From an uncultured Bacteroidales bacterium (lineage in GTDB: Bacteria > Bacteroidota > Bacteroidia > Bacteroidales > UBA1402): DNA of 64,000 nucleotides. Below are positions 9,281 to 39,892 of this stretch, one piece after another. Below the pieces are notes generated by a model. It ran no database searches. It worked only from the letters and a program-made list of their open reading frames with translations, and was not told the DNA's origin. The first letter of the stretch is position 1, and each line of letters starts with the position of its first letter. The DNA is taken from assembly GCA_964502355.1 (NCBI GenBank), contig CAZCWK010000005.1, positions 19,332 through 83,331 of the forward strand, read 5' to 3'. A program made the translations under genes and the position numbers.

Positions 9281-10105
9281 TTATTCTTTTAGTTTTACTA
9301 GCCCACTTGCATATACTGTAAACCAGACATGACTACTATCATCAACTACAATATGCTCAACAGAAGTATTGGTAAGAGGTGAGTTTTCTGTGTTAAAAAT
9401 TTTCCATGATCCGTCAGCGTCTAATTTAGCTACCCCTCCGGAGTACATGGCAATCCATTTATTGTTTTTGCCATCTATAGCGATATCTACGACAGAATTA
9501 CTTGGAAGTTCAGAGTTGTAAATAGTATAATTTTCAATATCGTTATTATTATTATTCTGTGTTGTATCCATCCTGAGAAGATTCTGGTAGCTCATTTTTT
9601 TACTTTTAATGTTGATTCCACTGTATTTATATAGACCGTCTCCCGACTCAGGTGCGACATTACTCCTTGACAAAACCCCAAACCATAAATTGTTTTCATT
9701 GTCAAAGTGCATACAAGGCACCCATTTTGCCTTTCCTGAACAAATTATAACAGTGTCCCATACGCTATAATTATACCTCATTATGACTCCAGGTTCATCA
9801 AAATCTGGCAATGTGCTGGCATATAAATTACCGTTTAAGTCAAAACATAAAGTATAAAAGGTTGAACCTTTAAAGTAGGTAGTCCAGGTACCCCTGACGT
9901 ATTTTTGTATGCCATCATCTGATGCTTTCCACGCATTTGATGCAACCCATATATCCCCATATCTATCAGTTTGACCTCTTGAAGAATGTAATTTATTTTT
10001 AAGGTTAGATACAGACCACTTGCAGCCAATATTTTCATATTTATCATAAATAAATAGAATTTTATCATTTATAAATATGTTCTTTTCAGTTATATTATTT
10101 TTCAA
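9281..10105 (-). CDS. beta-propeller (Reg_prop-like repeat) protein, probably the downstream part of a frameshifted gene
   Basis: Repeats of the two-component-regulator propeller type (NNKWIAMYSGGVAKLDADGSWKIFNTENSPL, VWFTVYASGLVKL). There is no ATG start (TTG) and no signal peptide. The frame stays open upstream into the 10102-10476 ORF region. Confidence 0.6.
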   Translation of the reverse strand: MKNNITEKNIFINDKILFIYDKYENIGCKWSVSNLKNKLHSSRGQTDRYGDIWVASNAWKASDDGIQKYVRGTWTTYFKGSTFYTLCFDLNGNLYASTLPDFDEPGVIMRYNYSVWDTVIICSGKAKWVPCMHFDNENNLWFGVLSRSNVAPESGDGLYKYSGINIKSKKMSYQNLLRMDTTQNNNNNDIENYTIYNSELPSNSVVDIAIDGKNNKWIAMYSGGVAKLDADGSWKIFNTENSPLTNTSVEHIVVDDSSHVWFTVYASGLVKLKE

Positions 10106-10419
10106 TGATATTGAAACATAATTAGAAAAAAAGCAGACGAGTCAATGGGTATAATTTTCTTATCATGTAATTGATATACCCAGGTACTATCTGTCGAGAA
10201 ATTATTTCTACGGATAAATGCCGAAAAAAAAATATCGTTATTCGAATCAGCAGTAAGTGAATTTATAGTATAATGAGTTTCAAAGTTGTCTTTATCATAA
10301 TAGTTTGTCCACTCAGAATATATTTTAATTTGAGGTGGATCGATTGTCGGATTTTCTTTACAGCAGGTGAATAGTGTGGTAAAGCATATAGTAATTATAG
10401 CTACAATTATAGGTTTCAT
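10102..10419 (-). CDS. lipoprotein N-terminal fragment (upstream part of the same frameshifted propeller gene)
   Basis: Likely start at 10419 (MKPIIVAIITICFTTLFTCCKENP, a lipobox). It terminates 8 codons after the T7 tract (coding strand) at 10126-10132. Confidence 0.55.
   Translation of the reverse strand: MKPIIVAIITICFTTLFTCCKENPTIDPPQIKIYSEWTNYYDKDNFETHYTINSLTADSNNDIFFSAFIRRNNFSTDSTWVYQLHDKKIIPIDSSAFFLIMFQYH
10126..10132 (-). repeat. 7-nt homopolymer (T7 on coding strand) separating the 10102-10419 and 9281-10105 reading frames
   Basis: With 8 T the reading is ...IPIDSSAFFSNYVSISLKNNITEKNIFINDK..., fusing both ORFs into one lipoprotein of about 380 aa. Confidence 0.7.
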
Positions 10420-10476
10420 TTTTTTAAGGTATAAAAACGGGCAAGGGATATTTTGATATTCAAATCTATTCATCAA

Positions 10477-12633
10477 TCATTGATTTAAAAAAAATATTTT
10501 TGAATAAAATTGATCTGAGTCACAAGATATTTTTAAGATATAGACCTGATTACAATGTATTCCATTCGGGCGTTTATAATGAACAATTGAGCTGCTCTGA
10601 TTTATTTTTTGACTAGGCAAAGAGCTTATTATTTTGCCGTTTAAATCATAAATCCTGGCATTGACATTTTTTTCGACAGTTGTTTTGATTTTTATATTTA
10701 TAATATCCTTTACCGGATTGGGAAATATCGTTAAAGTCTTCAAACAGTTGTCTATGTTCTCAGTAGATAATTGAAATGAATCAGGGTTAAAAACTGATAT
10801 ACCAGCATCAATATGGCCCATCCATAGATAGCCCGATTTGTCCTGTTTTATCCATTGAACGATATTGTTTGCAATTCCGGAATTGGTAACATTATAGGAT
10901 AACCACTTATCTTTTCTGTCAAAACTCATTAAACCTCCTCCGTATGTGCCAAGCCAAACCAATCCTTTTGTATCAACTAATACATCAAAAATAGTGTTCG
11001 TTAATAAACCGGAGTTGTCAGTTTTGAATGTTTTCATAGTTTGACCGTCAAAACATGTAAGACCGCCACCATAATCTCCTCCGATTATCCTATATTCGTC
11101 CATACACGAAAGCCATAGTTTATTTTCAGAGTCAAAATCCAAACCAACAACAACATTAGTTGGTATATTAGAGTTTGTCCGGTTCCAAACAGACCAGGTT
11201 TTACCATCAAATTTAAATAAGCCATATGATGAACCTCCCCAGATGTTATCGTATTTATCAATTTTTAATATACCTAGTTGATTGGATGGTATTGCACTAT
11301 TGGACGTATTGTAATTTGTAAAACTTGTCCCATCATATTTGTAAAGTCCGTTTTTTGAGGAGGAAATCCAAAGATTATCTTTATTATCAACTGCCATTCT
11401 GCATAAACCGGTTTTATTAAGATTTAAAGGCGAATTCAAGGAATCAAAAATTATTTTTTCCGATTTATCTATTTTTAGCAATGCTGTATCTCCATGACTA
11501 AAAGCCAGCCATATTGCACCATTATTAGACTGAGTTAATGTGGAGACAGGTTTGTCAATAACCGTATAAAACTGATCTTTTGTTTTTTTTACAAGGTTTT
11601 TTGTGGTTGCGATCCATTTGTGATTTTCGTTATCGATCAGAATATCACTAATATAATTGCCTTTTAATGGCGAATTAGATAAATCAATGGAAGAAAAATT
11701 ACTGCCATCAAAACATAAAAGGCTACCATTATATGTACCGCACCAGATATTTTCATTGTTGTCGGCTTTTAGGCGTAGCAAAGCTGTGTCAGGTGTGGCC
11801 GGTTTATAAAGTTGACAACCAAAAATATTAAATTTCACCAATCCTTTATCAGTTGCCAACCACATATTGTCATTAGAGTCAAAAGATATTGAGAAAATAT
11901 TATCTGTGGGTAAAGTGGAATTTGAGGTATTGTAACTAGTAAATATTGAACCATCATATTTGTATAAACCTATTCCTTCAATACCTATCCAAATATTCTT
12001 ATTATTATCCATTCCTATACATTGGTTGGTGCCTCCGTTGATACCTGAAATTATGGAATATTTATCATTTTCTATTTTTCCAAAACCATCCGTTGAACAA
12101 ATCCATACCACCCCATTTGCATCAATTAAAAAGTCTGAAATTATAGGAAATGGAGAAAGATCGCTACCTGTTATCCATGTTTTCCAATTGCTTCCATCAA
12201 ATTTTGCCATCCAACGAAAAGAAGCTATCCAAACATTTCCTTTCTTATCTACTTTAATTTTAGAATTGTATTGATCGAATGGCAAACCAGAATTTGCCTG
12301 ATTGTAAATAGTACATTGTTCTCCATTAAACTTTCCTATTCCATAATATTTACCACCCATCCAAACATTTCCACTGGCATCACAATATAAGCTTAACAAG
12401 TTATTATCAGGCAAGTTCGCATTGGCATGGTTAAAATATGTTTTTTCCCCGTTTTTTTTATTGTATTTTACCAAACCTCCTTGAGTACTAATCCAAATGT
12501 TATTATTATTATCAATGTCAATATCAGTTACCCTTTGACTAAAAGTGTAGTCTTCCCATGATATATAAGATTGCGATAGCATATTAGTCAAACTTAAAAA
12601 TGTTGTAATTATAATAATGAACAATTTTTTCAT
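10477..12633 (-). CDS. secreted multi-repeat beta-propeller protein (Reg_prop-type repeats) with T9SS C-terminal sorting domain
   Basis: Signal peptide MKKLFIIIITTFLSLTNMLSQ. There are many repeats of the type NIWISTQGGLVKYN.../NVWIASFRWMAKFDGSNW.../LWLSCMD.... The C-terminus is LTIFPNPVKDIINIKIKT...ARIYDLNGKIISSL...YILKISCDSDQFYSKIFF. Confidence 0.8.
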   Translation of the reverse strand: MKKLFIIIITTFLSLTNMLSQSYISWEDYTFSQRVTDIDIDNNNNIWISTQGGLVKYNKKNGEKTYFNHANANLPDNNLLSLYCDASGNVWMGGKYYGIGKFNGEQCTIYNQANSGLPFDQYNSKIKVDKKGNVWIASFRWMAKFDGSNWKTWITGSDLSPFPIISDFLIDANGVVWICSTDGFGKIENDKYSIISGINGGTNQCIGMDNNKNIWIGIEGIGLYKYDGSIFTSYNTSNSTLPTDNIFSISFDSNDNMWLATDKGLVKFNIFGCQLYKPATPDTALLRLKADNNENIWCGTYNGSLLCFDGSNFSSIDLSNSPLKGNYISDILIDNENHKWIATTKNLVKKTKDQFYTVIDKPVSTLTQSNNGAIWLAFSHGDTALLKIDKSEKIIFDSLNSPLNLNKTGLCRMAVDNKDNLWISSSKNGLYKYDGTSFTNYNTSNSAIPSNQLGILKIDKYDNIWGGSSYGLFKFDGKTWSVWNRTNSNIPTNVVVGLDFDSENKLWLSCMDEYRIIGGDYGGGLTCFDGQTMKTFKTDNSGLLTNTIFDVLVDTKGLVWLGTYGGGLMSFDRKDKWLSYNVTNSGIANNIVQWIKQDKSGYLWMGHIDAGISVFNPDSFQLSTENIDNCLKTLTIFPNPVKDIINIKIKTTVEKNVNARIYDLNGKIISSLPSQKINQSSSIVHYKRPNGIHCNQVYILKISCDSDQFYSKIFFLNQ

Positions 12634-12760
12634 AGCGGCAGATGTATAATAAAAGCCTTTTTGATTCCTAAACTTTAGAATTTTTTTTATTTGAGGTTGA
12701 TTCCTTAAAGGTATAAGTAAAAAGAGGACATTTCAAAATTGATTTGCCCTCTTTTACTAT

Positions 12761-15243
12761 TTATCGAACAACTATAAGATGTACATTTACATTGCTGTTT
12801 ACCAATAATTTTACGAGGCAAGTTCCTTTAAAATTTTCAGGTATATTTAGGTTAAAGATTTGGTGACCAGATGTTATCGCTTGTTTATTTAATACATCAG
12901 ATAAAACCCTACCATTTAAATCGATAATTTGTATTGATACTTTTGAATCTGTTTGCAGATTGAATGATATCTGGCTTGTTGTATTTGCAGGGTTAGGATA
13001 TACATTAAAATCATATGAATTGCTGTATATAATGCCTTTATTATCAGTTGAGTTATCTACAGTATATGGTTTTAATAATTCTTTAATGTATTTCATTGCA
13101 TAGGTTTGAGGCGATCTTACAATCACAGCTCCTGTTTCAGTTGTGGTTTTTAGACTACATTGTTTCTTTATTTTTTCAAGTATATCTTGATTTTCAATTA
13201 AAGTCAAATCTTCAAGCATATTGATAGCAAAGAAATCACCCTGTTGAAACTTTTCGAAAATCATCGGCCATATTGTTTTGCCTTGATCTTTACAATAAAC
13301 AATAAGTTCTTGGTATTCGTTACTCTTTGCATACATTCTAGGGTCGCTTTGTATAGCTATCTCTGGGTTTTTCCATGTTTGTTTCCATGCCGAGTATTTA
13401 TTCTCGAATTCCGATTGCTGATTGCTTGTTAACGAATTTATTCTTTTAGAAATGATGCTTTTTTCGGCTTCCGTAAGCTCAATATTTTCAATAACTGAAT
13501 GCCCCCTTGCTATAGATTCATCAAGTAACATGGCTGACCTTAAGGGTGAAGTTAGCCTGTAATATTGGCTTACATAGCCATAACCTCTTATCTGTGTATT
13601 GTTTAAAGAATTTCTTGGATGAAATGATCGCATCATATTACCAGGTTTACTTTCCCAATCATAACCATGAGGTTGGTTATTCCCTGGTTTAGTGACAGAA
13701 CCGTGAGTATAACTACCGTTACCTATATCATAGTAGTTAGGATTATACCATAAATCAACAGCACTATTTGAAGATGTAGCCCCTGTACGGGAATATGTCA
13801 TTGCTTCACCATCAAATCCATATCTAGGATTAGCTGCATAAAAATTGTCAAATGAAGCTAATGGATTTCCAACCACATAATACATTGAAAATGTATTAAG
13901 AGGCCATTCCCAGTAATCTGTAATACCTCCAGACCAACTGATACAATTATATGTATTGGATGACGGTGCAGATTGTATCGCATCATCGGCATTTAGATTA
14001 GGGAATACTGACATGATATCACTATTCTGGCACATTATATACAAGTCACAGGTATCAATAGGGTGTGCTGAGCTATTGGCCGAAACCAAGACACTACCTA
14101 TAGTTGTAGAAAAATCTTTTTTAACCCTTGAGTCTGAACCCCAGGAGAAGTCACCCCCACCATTAGAATAATCGTCATTAAATGCACGGATTATCCCTGG
14201 TATACCGCTATTATCTTCAATCCATATACGACTATCACCGGTTGATTTACAAGTAAAATAGTTGTAAGTTGTCGGAGTATCATGAACATGTCTAAAACCA
14301 GAGCCTGAAACTGCGCAATCTGTGAAATAGTATTGCCCGTTAATATTTAGATTAACCAATCCCTCTGTTTCCTGATGATACGCTCTTACTCTAGCGTAAT
14401 AAAAACCATTTGCTGGGATACTAACATTTATGGAAGCTAAACCGTTAGAGTTAGATAAAGCTGACCATGAATATGTTTCAGAATCGGACGATTTGAAAAA
14501 TTCCAAAACATGTTCATATCCATCGGAGGCATTTGTGGTAATAAAGACTTGGGAACCTGACCTGAAGTAATACAATCTCCACGTAGTATATTTGAAAGTG
14601 ATACCAATATGATGATAATAGTTTCCTTCTGGATTAGATAAAACAACTCCACTTCTAAGTGCCGAAGTCAAAGTGTCCTTTTTTACTATTGGATTATTAA
14701 TCCTGTCCTGAATATCTGTTTTTATTTGATTAATAAAAAGGTTATAGCTATTCTCGGATATTTCGGCTTTAAGCTTATCTTTGGAAAGTCTTACAAACTC
14801 AATTTCCGGAGTTTCGGGAATATCACATGAAAAAATAATCTGATTTAAACCTTTTTTAAGAAGTACAAATTTTTTCTCTTTAGATTTACTATCTATAAAA
14901 GGTGCATTGTGCCAGTCCCTTTTTATAGGTTTAAACTTTTCTGTTTGTTCTTCATTATTTACTACTAAATCATATTCAAGGAGTTTTCCACTACCGAAGT
15001 TTTCAAGCTCGCTTCCCATCATCCAGGCATTTAGATAATAGTCTCCATTGTCAGGAGCTTCAATCTCAAAAATTTTATACGCTTTAGATCCTTCAACTTT
15101 TATTATAGATTTTAAAACGACAACATCACCACCAAGCTCTTTTTGGTTATTAAAAAATCTTTTTTCGATTATTTCCTGTGAAATAGCATTAAATGTGACA
15201 AATAATGCTAAAATTACTGTTGTTATATACTTTTTTTAAGCAT
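12761..15243 (-). CDS. large T9SS-sorted secreted protein of unknown function, 5' end out of frame as sequenced
   Basis: C-terminal T9SS CTD (FNVYPNPANTTSQISFNLQTDSKVSIQIIDLNGRVLS...). The ORF is open upstream of its first ATG (15022) to 15235 and there encodes KKYITTVILALFVTFNAISQE, a signal peptide. An ATG at 15241-15243 is one base out of frame across the A7 tract. Confidence 0.75.
15231..15237 (-). repeat. 7-nt homopolymer (A7 on coding strand) at codons 3-5 of the 12761-15243 gene
   Basis: As sequenced, ATG CTT AAA AAA AGT ATA TAA stops after 6 codons. With A8 the reading is MLKKKYITTVILALFVTFNAISQEIIEKRFF..., contiguous with the 753-aa ORF. Confidence 0.8.
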
Positions 15244-38788: not shown

Positions 38789-39892
38789 TCAGATGTCTGT
38801 ATTATTTTTGTTCATTACTTCCATCTGCTGTCTGATAGATTCTTCGTGAATGGCTTCAAGTATTTTCTGCATGCAATCTCCGTCAATTCCAAAACTAACA
38901 GCCTGCTTAATCCTGTCTTCTAGAATCTCGCTGTATCTTGCCGTCTGTAAAATCTGCATATTATGTTCTTTTTTGAAAGTTCCGATTTCACGGGATATTC
39001 TCATACGTTTGGACAGTATTGAGAGCATTTCATCATCTATTTCATCAATTTGCTTTCTCAATTCACTTAAACTTTCAGTAGTTTGGTTCATATCTCTGAT
39101 TACAAGCAGATTGAGTATATAGTCAAGGATATCAGGTGTTACCTGTTGGTCCTTGTCGCTCCATGCGTTGTCAGGGTCACAGTGAGATTCAATAATCAAA
39201 CCATCAAAATTCAGATCCATTGCTTGCTGGGAAATCGATGAAATCAGTTCTCTTTTACCTCCTATATGACTTGGGTCACAGAACATGGGAATATTTTCAA
39301 ATCTTCTTCTTAGTTCAATTGGTATATGCCACATAGGTAGATTCCTGTAAATCTTTTTATCTGAAGAGCTGAATCCTCTGTGTATAACACCAAGTTTTCT
39401 TATTCCGGCCAGATAAAGTCTTTCAATACCTCCAATCCACAAGTCAAGATCCGGATTTACAGGATTTTTTATAAGCACCGGCATGTCTGATCCTTCAAGA
39501 GCATCTGCTATCTCCTGAACGGCAAAAGGATTTGCAGATGTGCGTGCTCCAATCCAAAGAATGTCAACGCCATATTTTATTGCTTCAGCGACATGTTTAG
39601 CAGTTGCTACTTCTGTCGCTGTGTACATTCCCAGTTCATTTTTTACTCTTTTAAGCCAAACCAATCCTGGGGTACCAATACCTTCAAATGCTCCCGGTCT
39701 TGTCCTTGGTTTCCATATGCCTGCTCTGAATATTTTAACTCCCCTGTCATGAAGTTGCTTAGCAGTAGTCATTACCTGTTCTTCTGTTTCAGCACTACAT
39801 GGTCCTGAGATTACTATCGGTCTTTTTGGATCAATACCCGGCAGGAGTATCGATTCGAATTGCATTTTTTCCATATATATGATTTTTATCAA
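38789..39892 (-). CDS. bifunctional 3-deoxy-7-phosphoheptulonate (DAHP) synthase / chorismate mutase type II
   Basis: Type I-beta DAHP/KDO8P-like barrel (VISGPCSAE...FRAGIWKPRT...CDPSH). The C-terminal chorismate mutase helix is LRKQIDEIDDEMLSILSKRMRISREIGTFK. The start may be an internal Met (MEKMQFES). Confidence 0.85.
   Translation of the reverse strand: MIKIIYMEKMQFESILLPGIDPKRPIVISGPCSAETEEQVMTTAKQLHDRGVKIFRAGIWKPRTRPGAFEGIGTPGLVWLKRVKNELGMYTATEVATAKHVAEAIKYGVDILWIGARTSANPFAVQEIADALEGSDMPVLIKNPVNPDLDLWIGGIERLYLAGIRKLGVIHRGFSSSDKKIYRNLPMWHIPIELRRRFENIPMFCDPSHIGGKRELISSISQQAMDLNFDGLIIESHCDPDNAWSDKDQQVTPDILDYILNLLVIRDMNQTTESLSELRKQIDEIDDEMLSILSKRMRISREIGTFKKEHNMQILQTARYSEILEDRIKQAVSFGIDGDCMQKILEAIHEESIRQQMEVMNKNNTDI

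What the first reader, a model, noticed from the sequence alone, without database searches (positions are those of the whole stretch)
10126..10132. T7 tract splits a lipoprotein beta-propeller gene into a 105-aa head and a start-less 274-aa body
The ORF at 10102-10419 has a lipobox and ends 8 codons after the tract. The downstream ORF has only a TTG start and no signal peptide, and its frame is open back across the tract. With T8 the junction reads ...DSSAFFSNYVSISLKNNITEK..., giving one lipoprotein of about 380 aa.
Basis: seen in the sequence. Interest (0 to 1): 0.55.

Follow-up and report, generated by a model that had tools for sequence, protein, structure and literature searches.

The report
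One-base frameshift splitting a lipoprotein gene
A surface lipoprotein gene of an uncultured biogas-reactor bacterium is cut in two because a run of eight T's has lost one T, a real but ordinary knock-out variant, since otherwise near-identical bacteria in other reactors still carry the intact gene.

Summary
On the minus strand, a T7 run at 10126-10132 separates a 105-aa lipoprotein head (10102-10419) from a 274-aa body that has only a TTG start (9281-10105). Adding one T gives a 379-aa protein.

- About 35 homologues are single ORFs of 330-355 aa that align straight across the junction.
- A 97%-identical relative (L023) and two near-identical contigs (L024, L025) carry T8 and an intact gene.
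- An independent Illumina assembly (L027, SRR8925805), identical to the window over 3,056 nt, carries T7.
- The AlphaFold model is one beta-propeller, and the break lies inside the fold, so T7 should be a null allele.

Best reading: a genuine, recent slippage deletion (T8 to T7) segregating in a Bacteroidales-like population from anaerobic digesters.

Two neighbouring secreted-protein genes have the same "7 where 8 is needed" lesion: the DUF7689/T9SS gene at 15231-15237 and a C10 peptidase at 8394-8400. Relatives carry other lesions in the same gene cluster (nonsense codons, other frameshifts). This favours repeated gene loss over a dedicated switch, but reversible phase variation is not excluded. 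Programmed frameshifting and a sequencing artefact are both unlikely. Interest is low to moderate.

The parts
10126..10132 (-). T7 homopolymer, the frameshift site. It is T8 in intact relatives. In frame it reads GC-U UUU UUU-C.
   Evidence: T8 in L023, L024, L025 and L034; T7 in L027.
9281..10419 (-). The whole frameshifted gene for a 379-aa lipoprotein made of one Reg_prop-type beta-propeller.
   Evidence: Fused translation; homologues; P0040; model with pLDDT 82.6 and pTM 0.81; Foldseek hits to BT4663, BT3049, BT4673 and PorZ.
10102..10419 (-). Head ORF, 105 aa: signal peptide, lipobox (LFT-C19) and the first five beta-strands of the propeller, then 7 out-of-frame codons and TGA.
10363..10365 (-). 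Codon of Cys19, the predicted lipidated cysteine.
   Evidence: C19 is conserved in at least 90% of the 19 aligned homologues; codon checked.
9281..10105 (-). Body ORF, 274 aa. Its only start is a TTG overlapping the head's stop (TTGA). It has no signal peptide and is the piece annotated in the public record (P0001).
9530..9607 (-). Lineage-specific insertion of about 24-26 aa (KSKKMSYQNLLRMDTTQNNNNNDIE), predicted to be a disordered loop. Present in the window and L023, absent from L034 and all more distant homologues.
   Evidence: (pLDDT 37).
15231..15237 (-). Second lesion of the same kind. An A7 run directly after the ATG (15241-15243) of the DUF7689/T9SS-sorting-domain gene (12761-15243). 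With A8 the gene gives an 827-aa protein with a signal peptide.
   Evidence: L023 has A8; L033 (SRR8925824) has A7.
8394..8400 (-). Third lesion of the same kind. A T7 run inside the signal peptide of a C10-peptidase lipoprotein gene (6980-8436). With T8 it reads MKKSVSYLFVLLFFLSSC... and gives 485 aa.
   Evidence: L035 (SRR8925805) is 100% identical to the window, including T7.
8681..9259 (-). DUF4943 gene, the conserved downstream partner of the lipoprotein gene.
10477..12633 (-). Intact 718-aa paralogue (Reg_prop propeller plus T9SS sorting domain) lying between the DUF7689 gene and the lipoprotein gene. Present only in the window and L023 lineage.

Best explanation
The locus is one gene for a 379-aa lipoprotein that folds into a single Reg_prop-type beta-propeller. 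In this strain an 8-T run at codons 95-98 has lost one T, most simply by replication slippage. Translation therefore ends 7 codons later.

The products should both be non-functional. The head is a 105-aa lipoprotein stub carrying about one propeller blade. The body, if made at all, has no export signal and lacks the first blade. So T7 is a null (OFF) allele.

It is a real and very recent variant that segregates among near-identical populations in different anaerobic digesters. It is not a conserved feature of the gene. It belongs to a wider pattern: the same strain carries the same type of lesion in two neighbouring secreted-protein genes, and relatives carry unrelated lesions in the same cluster. 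The simplest reading is repeated loss of a dispensable or counter-selected surface-protein cluster, with the longest A/T runs hit first because they are the most mutable sites.

Shown: single-gene ancestry, the T8/T7 polymorphism, and the position of the break inside the fold. Inferred: slippage as the cause, loss of function, and relaxed or negative selection.
For: - Single-ORF homologues align across the junction.
- T8 and an intact 379-aa ORF occur in L023, which differs from the window gene by 33 mismatches in 1,139 nt and one gap at the tract.
- T8 also occurs in L025 (0 mismatches in the 3,270 nt around the tract) and L024. T7 occurs in L027, which has 0 mismatches over 3,056 nt.
- L027 and L035 come from run SRR8925805, and L033 from SRR8925824. 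Both are Illumina HiSeq X10 PCR-free digestate metagenomes (PMC7842101), assembled by a pipeline independent of the public record.
- In all of these contigs the T9 run 100 nt upstream in the same gene is unchanged, as are the four other runs of 8 in the 4.6 kb.
- About 40 other long ORFs in the window are intact, including ones that contain A/T 8-mers.
- The model is one propeller over residues 36-378, with the junction at residues 96-98 in a well-predicted stretch (pLDDT 88) between strands. Foldseek alignments span the whole length.
- Sibling lesions in the window: A7 at 15231-15237 and T7 at 8394-8400.
- Independent lesions elsewhere: a lipoprotein frameshift in L001-L003, TCA to TAA in L034, DUF7689 CAG to TAG in L020, and a frameshift plus lost ATG in L001.
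- The body shows no further decay. Against L023 there are 16 synonymous and 14 non-synonymous codon differences and no extra stops, which fits a recent event.
Against: - No reads were available, so within-sample allele frequencies are unknown.
- The window and the SRR8925805 contigs may derive from the same reads. For T7 at 10126 the support may therefore be an independent assembler rather than an independent sample.
- Three lesions of the same type (7 for 8), all near the 5' ends of surface or secreted-protein genes within 7 kb, is also what a set of contingency loci would look like.
- Loss of function is inferred from the model, not measured.
- Low-level rescue by transcriptional or ribosomal slippage on U7 cannot be excluded.
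Confidence: 0.65

Rival explanations
1. Evolved phase variation. The A/T8 runs in the lipoprotein, DUF7689 and C10-peptidase genes are contingency tracts. They switch these surface proteins ON (8) and OFF (7) reversibly by slipped-strand mispairing, for example to escape phage or predators that recognise them.
For: - T7 and T8 occur on near-identical backgrounds in different digesters.
- Three neighbouring secreted-protein genes are all OFF through a 7-for-8 run in their 5' parts.
- No housekeeping gene in the window is affected.
- T8 is kept in four relatives with gene identity down to about 93%.
Against: - Only one switching event per tract is needed to explain the data, and no reversal is seen.
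- An 8-mer A/T run is short for a high-frequency switch (my own knowledge of Campylobacter, Neisseria and Mycoplasma tracts).
- The tracts are not conserved in homologues at 63% identity: TTT TTC TCT in L019 and L020, and no run in L021, L001 or L004. The DUF7689 N-termini differ as well.
- Other lineages inactivate the same genes by nonsense codons and non-tract frameshifts.
- Runs of 9 or more are depleted in the window: 3 observed against 8 +/- 2.8 expected.
Confidence: 0.2
2. Sequencing or assembly artefact. The organism has T8, and the assembly dropped a base in the homopolymer.
For: - Homopolymers are the classic site of indel errors.
- All three lesions in the window are contractions.
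- The exact fused proteins are not on record for this strain.
Against: - The Logan assemblies of SRR8925805 reproduce T7 at both 10126 and 8394 with 100% identity. A different run, SRR8925824, reproduces A7 at 15231.
- The data are Illumina PCR-free, and the same project's chemistry reads T8 at this site in SRR8925793.
- The longer T9 in the same gene and 28 other 8-mers in the window are read normally.
- Window-versus-L023 homopolymer differences go in both directions.
- The lesions cluster in one 7-kb region of dispensable genes rather than falling at random.
Confidence: 0.08
3. Recoding. The full-length protein is made from the T7 allele by programmed -1 ribosomal frameshifting on U_UUU_UUU, or by transcriptional slippage on the U7/A7 runs.
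For: - The T7 run lies in the exact X_XXY_YYZ phase (GC-U UUU UUU-C), and a -1 shift gives the same ...AFFSNYV... protein.
- An AU-rich hairpin starts 3 nt downstream. The 113-nt fold has z = -2.06.
- All three lesions need one extra base in the mRNA.
Against: - Orthologues and near-identical strains have T8 and a plain ORF, so the shift is not conserved.
- The hairpin is weak, made almost entirely of A-U and G-U pairs. It sits closer than the usual 5-9 nt spacer and is present in the T8 allele as well.
- The other two tracts are not in a canonical slippery phase.
- Seven-base runs give little transcriptional slippage (my own knowledge of the E. coli and Shigella work).
Confidence: 0.04
4. Two genuine genes: a small lipoprotein and a separate cytoplasmic propeller protein that starts at the TTG through stop-start (TTGA) coupling.
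For: The public annotation calls the 274-aa ORF (P0001). The TTG overlaps the head's stop codon.
Against: - No homologue has this arrangement as its normal state.
- The break lies inside one propeller domain.
- The last 7 residues of the head are out-of-frame sequence with no counterpart in homologues.
Confidence: 0.01

Closest known systems
Frameshift pseudogenes or null alleles created by slippage in mononucleotide runs (general bacterial phenomenon)
   Same: A one-base contraction of an A/T8 run inside a coding sequence truncates the product. Intact alleles exist in close relatives.
   Different: Nothing essential differs. The notable points are that it is polymorphic between near-identical populations and that two neighbouring genes carry sibling lesions.
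Homopolymer-tract contingency loci (phase-variable surface proteins of Campylobacter, Neisseria, Haemophilus, Helicobacter, Bordetella and Mycoplasma; for example PMC1891110)
   Same: A tract in the 5' part of a surface-protein gene, with ON and OFF lengths both seen in nature and several such genes side by side.
   Different: The tract is only 8 nt of A/T and is not conserved beyond close relatives. No reversal was observed, and other lineages lose the same genes by non-tract mutations. In the papers I searched, homopolymer switching in Bacteroides is only suggested, not demonstrated (PMC3090145).
Reg_prop (PF07494) beta-propellers: periplasmic sensor domains of Bacteroides hybrid two-component systems (BT4663, 4a2m; BT3049, 3v9f; BT4673, 3ott and 3va6) and the T9SS protein PorZ (5m11)
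   Same: Same repeat family by Pfam (37 bits against a cut-off of 20.4) and the best structural matches (Foldseek E 7.5e-9 to 1e-7, probability 1.0).
   Different: This is a single propeller on a lipid anchor. It has no second propeller, no Y_Y_Y, kinase or regulator domains, and no T9SS sorting domain. Sequence identity is 12-16% and TM about 0.5. It scores 34 bits against the PorZ NCBIfam model, whose cut-off is 260, so it is not PorZ.
-1 programmed ribosomal frameshifting (dnaX, IS elements) and transcriptional slippage rescue of poly(A) frameshifts (endosymbionts, Shigella T3SS genes)
   Same: A slippery heptamer in phase, where a shift of one base would restore the product.
   Different: The shift is not conserved, there is no strong stimulator, and the run is shorter than those known to slip efficiently.

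Membership tests
Single-gene ancestry (frameshifted allele of one ORF) | Orthologues encode head and body as one ORF, colinear across the junction | tested here: met
   About 35 homologues of 330-355 aa cover 91-100% of the fused protein, most at least 95%. P0040 is an intact 379-aa protein.
Single-gene ancestry (frameshifted allele of one ORF) | A closely related sequence differs only by the indel at the site | tested here: met
   L025 shows 0 mismatches and 1 gap (T8 against T7) in the 3,270 nt around the tract. L023 has T8.
Bacterial lipoprotein (signal peptidase II substrate) | Positively charged N-terminus, hydrophobic core, and a lipobox ending in a conserved Cys | tested here: met
   The N-terminus reads MKP-IIVAIITICFTTLFT-C19. 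The Cys is at least 90% conserved, and homologues read L-[IF]-S-C. Thr at position -1 in the window is unusual. No dedicated signal-peptide predictor was available.
Reg_prop beta-propeller (PF07494) | Pfam match above the gathering score | tested here: met
   37 bits against a cut-off of 20.4, E 1.9e-9.
Reg_prop beta-propeller (PF07494) | Propeller fold resembling solved members | tested here: met
   The model has pLDDT 82.6 and pTM 0.81 and is all-beta over residues 36-378. Top Foldseek hits are 4a2m, 3v9f, 5m11 and 3ott.
T9SS PorZ (NF052228) | Score above the equivalog cut-off, two propellers and a C-terminal sorting domain | tested here: not met
   33.9 bits against a cut-off of 260. There is one propeller and no Por_Secre_tail domain.
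Homopolymer phase-variable (contingency) locus | Tract-length polymorphism between otherwise near-identical genomes | tested here: met
   T7 in the window and L027 against T8 in L025 and L024.
Homopolymer phase-variable (contingency) locus | Reversible switching in both directions, with mixed lengths within a population | not testable with these tools
   No reads were available. One T8-to-T7 event explains all the data.
Homopolymer phase-variable (contingency) locus | The tract is maintained by selection across relatives | tested here: inconclusive
   T8 is kept in L023, L024, L025 and L034. In L019 and L020 the run is interrupted (TTT TTC TCT), and it is absent from L021, L001 and L004.
Programmed -1 ribosomal frameshift | X_XXY_YYZ heptamer in the zero-frame phase | tested here: met
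   The sequence reads GC-U UUU UUU-CUA.
Programmed -1 ribosomal frameshift | Stable stimulatory structure 5-9 nt downstream | tested here: inconclusive
   There is only an AU-rich hairpin 3 nt downstream. The 113-nt fold is -17 kcal/mol with z = -2.06.
Programmed -1 ribosomal frameshift | The frameshift arrangement is conserved in orthologues | tested here: not met
   All orthologues, and near-identical strains, are plain ORFs with T8 or no tract.

The most novel reading that the evidence does not exclude
An uncultured Bacteroidales-like bacterium from anaerobic digesters switches a block of neighbouring surface and secreted proteins on and off through A/T 8-to-7 mononucleotide runs. The block comprises a lipid-anchored Reg_prop propeller, a DUF7689 T9SS cargo protein and a C10 peptidase. 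This would be simple-repeat phase variation in a group where invertible promoters are the established switch. The cluster would be under recurrent selection for loss, for example as a phage or predator receptor.
Probability: 0.15. Interest if true: 0.5.

Novelty: new member of a known kind. Interest (0 to 1): 0.27.

Why it matters
- Annotation: the public record's 274-aa protein (P0001) is a fragment. The true gene product is a 379-aa lipoprotein, and two neighbouring genes are mis-called for the same reason.
- Biology: this is a small, clean example of a null allele segregating between near-identical populations in different biogas reactors. It lies in a conserved but uncharacterised three-gene cluster (DUF7689/T9SS cargo, Reg_prop lipoprotein, DUF4943) that appears to be lost repeatedly in nature.
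- That pattern marks the cluster as dispensable or counter-selected surface machinery. It also offers a candidate for testing whether Bacteroidales use homopolymer switching.
- It does not reveal a new mechanism.

Tried and rejected
- Two scans of JGI metagenome contigs for the tract with flanks gave no hit and then three unrelated chance hits. They added no alleles.
- Exact look-ups of P0001 and of the 753-aa DUF7689 product found no contig. The 752-aa variant and the neighbouring proteins did.
- The GTDB genome scan did not return the window's own genome, so the organism is named only by inference.
- Other ORF pairs that a +/-1 change in a run would merge (5299-5303 and 38805-38809) turned out to be ordinary adjacent genes: a TonB receptor with a DUF4249 protein, and a DAHP-synthase-like ORF with a prephenate-dehydrogenase-like ORF.
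- I first read L028 as showing T8 in the C10 peptidase gene of SRR8925793. That was wrong. L028 diverges from the window at 8494 and lacks that gene.
- The idea that the window's T7 arose by loss of the C in TTT TTC TCT, as in L019 and L020, was dropped once closer relatives showed a pure T8.
- A literature search found nothing on DUF7689. DUF4943 gets one passing mention, which I did not read. On homopolymer switching in Bacteroides I found only a speculative remark.

Full report
**1. What is in the sequence**

The gene lies on the minus strand. The + strand reads A7 at 10126-10132, which is T7 in the coding sense.

An ORF starts at ATG 10419 and reads MKPIIVAIITICFTTLFTCCKENP.... It runs through GCT TTT TTT and stops 7 sense codons later (LIMFQYH, TGA at 10102-10104), giving 105 aa.

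A second frame is open from 10141 to 9281. Its only start codon near the 5' end is a TTG at 10103-10105 that overlaps the head's stop (TTGA). The first ATG is 120 codons into the open frame, and there is no signal peptide.

Adding one T yields a 379-aa ORF that reads ...IPIDSSAFFSNYVSISLKNNITEK....

A T7 run alone means little. The window is 36% G+C and has 72 A/T runs of 7 or more, against 59 +/- 6.6 expected. However, this is the only homopolymer run in 64 kb where a +/-1 change joins two pieces that homology shows to be one gene.

**2. It is one gene**

A search with the fused protein returned about 35 single-ORF proteins of 330-355 aa covering 91-100% of it, most at least 95%. In the alignment the junction is colinear: the window has SSAFFSNY, P0002 has SSVFFSDY and P0003 has SSDFFSGY. 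Cys19 is nearly invariant behind a hydrophobic N-terminus, so these are lipoproteins.

Pfam finds Reg_prop repeats (37 bits against a cut-off of 20.4).

An AlphaFold model built from the alignment (pLDDT 82.6, pTM 0.81) is all-beta from residue 36 to 378. The junction at residues 96-98 sits in a short, confidently predicted helix between strands 88-91 and 102-107. The head supplies five strands of the fold.

Foldseek aligns the full length to the sensor propellers of Bacteroides hybrid two-component systems (4a2m, 3v9f, 3ott, 3va6) and to PorZ (5m11). The frameshift therefore cuts a single domain. It does not fall at a domain boundary.

**3. The predicted T8 allele exists**

The 90% identity cluster of the annotated 274-aa fragment (P0001) also contains P0040, which is 379 aa. 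Its DNA (L023, ENA ERZ15185028) differs from the window gene by 33 substitutions in 1,139 nt and one gap, which is T8 against T7.

Contigs that carry the window's exact neighbouring protein give a sharper picture:

| Contig | Run | Match to window | Tract |
|---|---|---|---|
| L025 | SRR8925793 | 0 mismatches over the 3,270 nt around the tract (9 over its full 4,638 nt) | T8 |
| L024 | SRR11845629 | 27 mismatches over 4,703 nt | T8 |
| L027 | SRR8925805 | 0 mismatches over 3,056 nt | T7 |
| L034 | SRR30464909 | about 93% nt identity (to L023, the window's 97% relative) | T8 |

T8 is therefore ancestral, and T7 is a very recent contraction.

**4. Real variant or error?**

- SRR8925805 and SRR8925824 are Illumina HiSeq X10, PCR-free, 2x150 metagenomes of biogas-plant digestate (PMC7842101). 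SRR8925793 is a pig-manure digester sample (PMC13644194).
- The Logan assemblies are independent of the public record, yet L027, L029 and L035 from SRR8925805 match the window base for base, including T7.
- In all these contigs the longer T9 run 100 nt upstream in the same gene is unchanged, as are four other 8-mers nearby.
- The window keeps 28 other 8-mers, and about 40 long ORFs are intact.
- Homopolymer differences between the window and L023 run in both directions.

An artefact is therefore unlikely, at about 8%. The window and the SRR8925805 contigs may share reads, so only read pile-ups would settle it.

**5. The lesion is not alone**

Comparing the window with L023 exposed a second case. 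The DUF7689/T9SS-sorting-domain gene starts ATG CTT AAA AAA AAG... (MLKKKYITTVILALF..., 827 aa) in L023. In the window the run is A7 (15231-15237). The ATG frame therefore stops after 6 codons, and the long frame has no start for 71 codons. L033 (SRR8925824, 4 mismatches in 3,080 nt) also has A7.

A scan for long ORFs with start-less leaders flagged only three genes in the window: these two and the C10 peptidase gene at 6980-8449. In the peptidase gene a T7 run (8394-8400) sits inside the signal peptide. With T8 the protein reads MKKSVSYLFVLLFFLSSCTQLDFNEDSF... (485 aa). This matches homologues such as P0054 (MKKSNLSLAVLFMVLASCSQLDFDADIS) and P0055, and 465-505-aa homologues cover 99-100% of it. 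L035 confirms T7.

So this strain has three secreted-protein genes within 7 kb that are each off by one base in a 7-for-8 run.

**6. The same cluster is broken in other ways elsewhere**

The triad of DUF7689/T9SS cargo, Reg_prop lipoprotein and DUF4943 is syntenic in every locus examined.

- In L001-L003 the lipoprotein gene is split about 20 codons further downstream by a different indel. The DUF7689 gene there has lost its ATG and carries a frameshift.
- In L034 the lipoprotein gene has TCA to TAA at the invariant Ser228.
- In L020 the DUF7689 gene has CAG to TAG at the end of its signal peptide.

Different mutation types at different sites indicate recurrent loss of function, not one dedicated switch.

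**7. Mechanism and rivals**

Most likely (about 0.65): replication slippage shortened T8 to T7 and created a null allele that segregates among digester populations. The cluster is dispensable or counter-selected, and its longest A/T runs fail first. The body has no further stops, and the 16 synonymous to 14 non-synonymous codon differences against L023 fit past constraint and a recent event.

Phase variation (about 0.2) fits the polymorphism and the three 5'-proximal tracts. Against it:
- only one event per tract is needed;
- 8-nt A/T runs are short for a switch;
- the tract is interrupted (TTT TTC TCT) or absent in 63%-identity homologues;
- runs of 9 or more are depleted in the window;
- non-tract lesions occur in relatives.

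Recoding (about 0.04): U_UUU_UUU is in the canonical -1 phase and would give the same protein. However, the arrangement is not conserved. The downstream hairpin is weak, AU-rich and only 3 nt away (z = -2.06). The sibling tracts are not in phase. Incidental low-level slippage remains possible.

Two separate genes (about 0.01) is refuted by the T8 alleles and the single-domain model.

**8. Comparison with known families, and novelty**

The protein belongs to the Reg_prop propeller family by Pfam and by fold. It is not PorZ (34 bits against a cut-off of 260, one propeller, no sorting domain). It is not a hybrid two-component sensor either, because it has no signalling domains.

The event is a standard homopolymer frameshift. 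I found no literature on DUF7689. For DUF4943 there is a single passing mention, which I did not read. For homopolymer switching in Bacteroides I found only a speculative remark (PMC3090145).

Verdict: the finding is correct and well explained. It is a new member of a known kind, of low to moderate interest (0.27). There is a modest chance (about 0.15) that the three-gene pattern reflects genuine simple-repeat phase variation in a Bacteroidales lineage.

Noticed in passing
window 15231-15237 (minus strand), gene 12761-15243: The DUF7689/T9SS-sorting-domain gene is cut off from its ATG and signal peptide by an A7 run that is A8 in L023 (827 aa there). The same A7 is seen in L033 from a different run (SRR8925824). 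The public record annotates a 753-aa product that starts at an internal ATG.
   Followed up: yes
window 8394-8400 (minus strand), gene 6980-8436: The C10 peptidase lipoprotein gene is frameshifted inside its signal peptide by a T7 run. T8 restores MKKSVSYLFVLLFFLSSC... (485 aa), which matches homologues. L035 (SRR8925805) is identical, including T7.
   Followed up: yes
L001-L003 (4748-5840 and 2030-2400 in L001), L034 (311-1432), L020 (about 500-530): Independent inactivating lesions hit the same gene cluster in other lineages. The lipoprotein gene is frameshifted about 20 codons downstream of the window's site (L001-L003) or carries TCA to TAA at the invariant Ser228 (L034). The DUF7689 gene has CAG to TAG (L020) or a lost ATG plus a frameshift (L001).
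   Followed up: partly
window 9530-9607 (minus strand): An insertion of about 24-26 aa, Asn-rich (KSKKMSYQNLLRMDTTQNNNNNDIE), sits in a propeller loop and is predicted disordered (pLDDT 37). It is present only in the window and L023, and absent from L034 and all other homologues.
   Followed up: partly
window 3119-8675 compared with L023 11740-11754, and L028 beyond position 968 (window 8494): There is strain-level structural variation next to the cluster. The 5.5-kb block carrying a TonB-dependent receptor, a DUF4249 lipoprotein, a 253-aa protein and the C10 peptidase is absent from L023. In L028 (SRR8925793) the C10 peptidase gene is missing, and a 78%-identical copy of the 253-aa gene follows the DUF4943 gene directly.
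   Followed up: partly
window 8681-15243; L019, L020, L021, L001, L023: A conserved, uncharacterised gene triad (DUF7689 with T9SS sorting domain, Reg_prop lipoprotein, DUF4943) is found in many metagenome contigs. The window and L023 have an extra 718-aa Reg_prop/T9SS paralogue inserted at 10477-12633.
   Followed up: partly
window 10102-10105 (minus strand): The head's TGA stop overlaps the body's TTG start (TTGA). This could in principle allow termination-reinitiation and yield a cytoplasmic, signal-less propeller fragment.
   Followed up: no
whole window: The A/T run-length spectrum shows 31 runs of 8 or more against 21 +/- 4.3 expected, but only 3 of 9 or more against 8 +/- 2.8 expected from a first-order Markov model. 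This suggests that runs longer than 8 are avoided.
   Followed up: no
L005 (DYTA01000090.1, 4.8-kb contig): A homologue of this Bacteroidota-type lipoprotein sits on a short contig of a MAG labelled Nitrosospira multiformis. This is probably a mis-binned contig.
   Followed up: no
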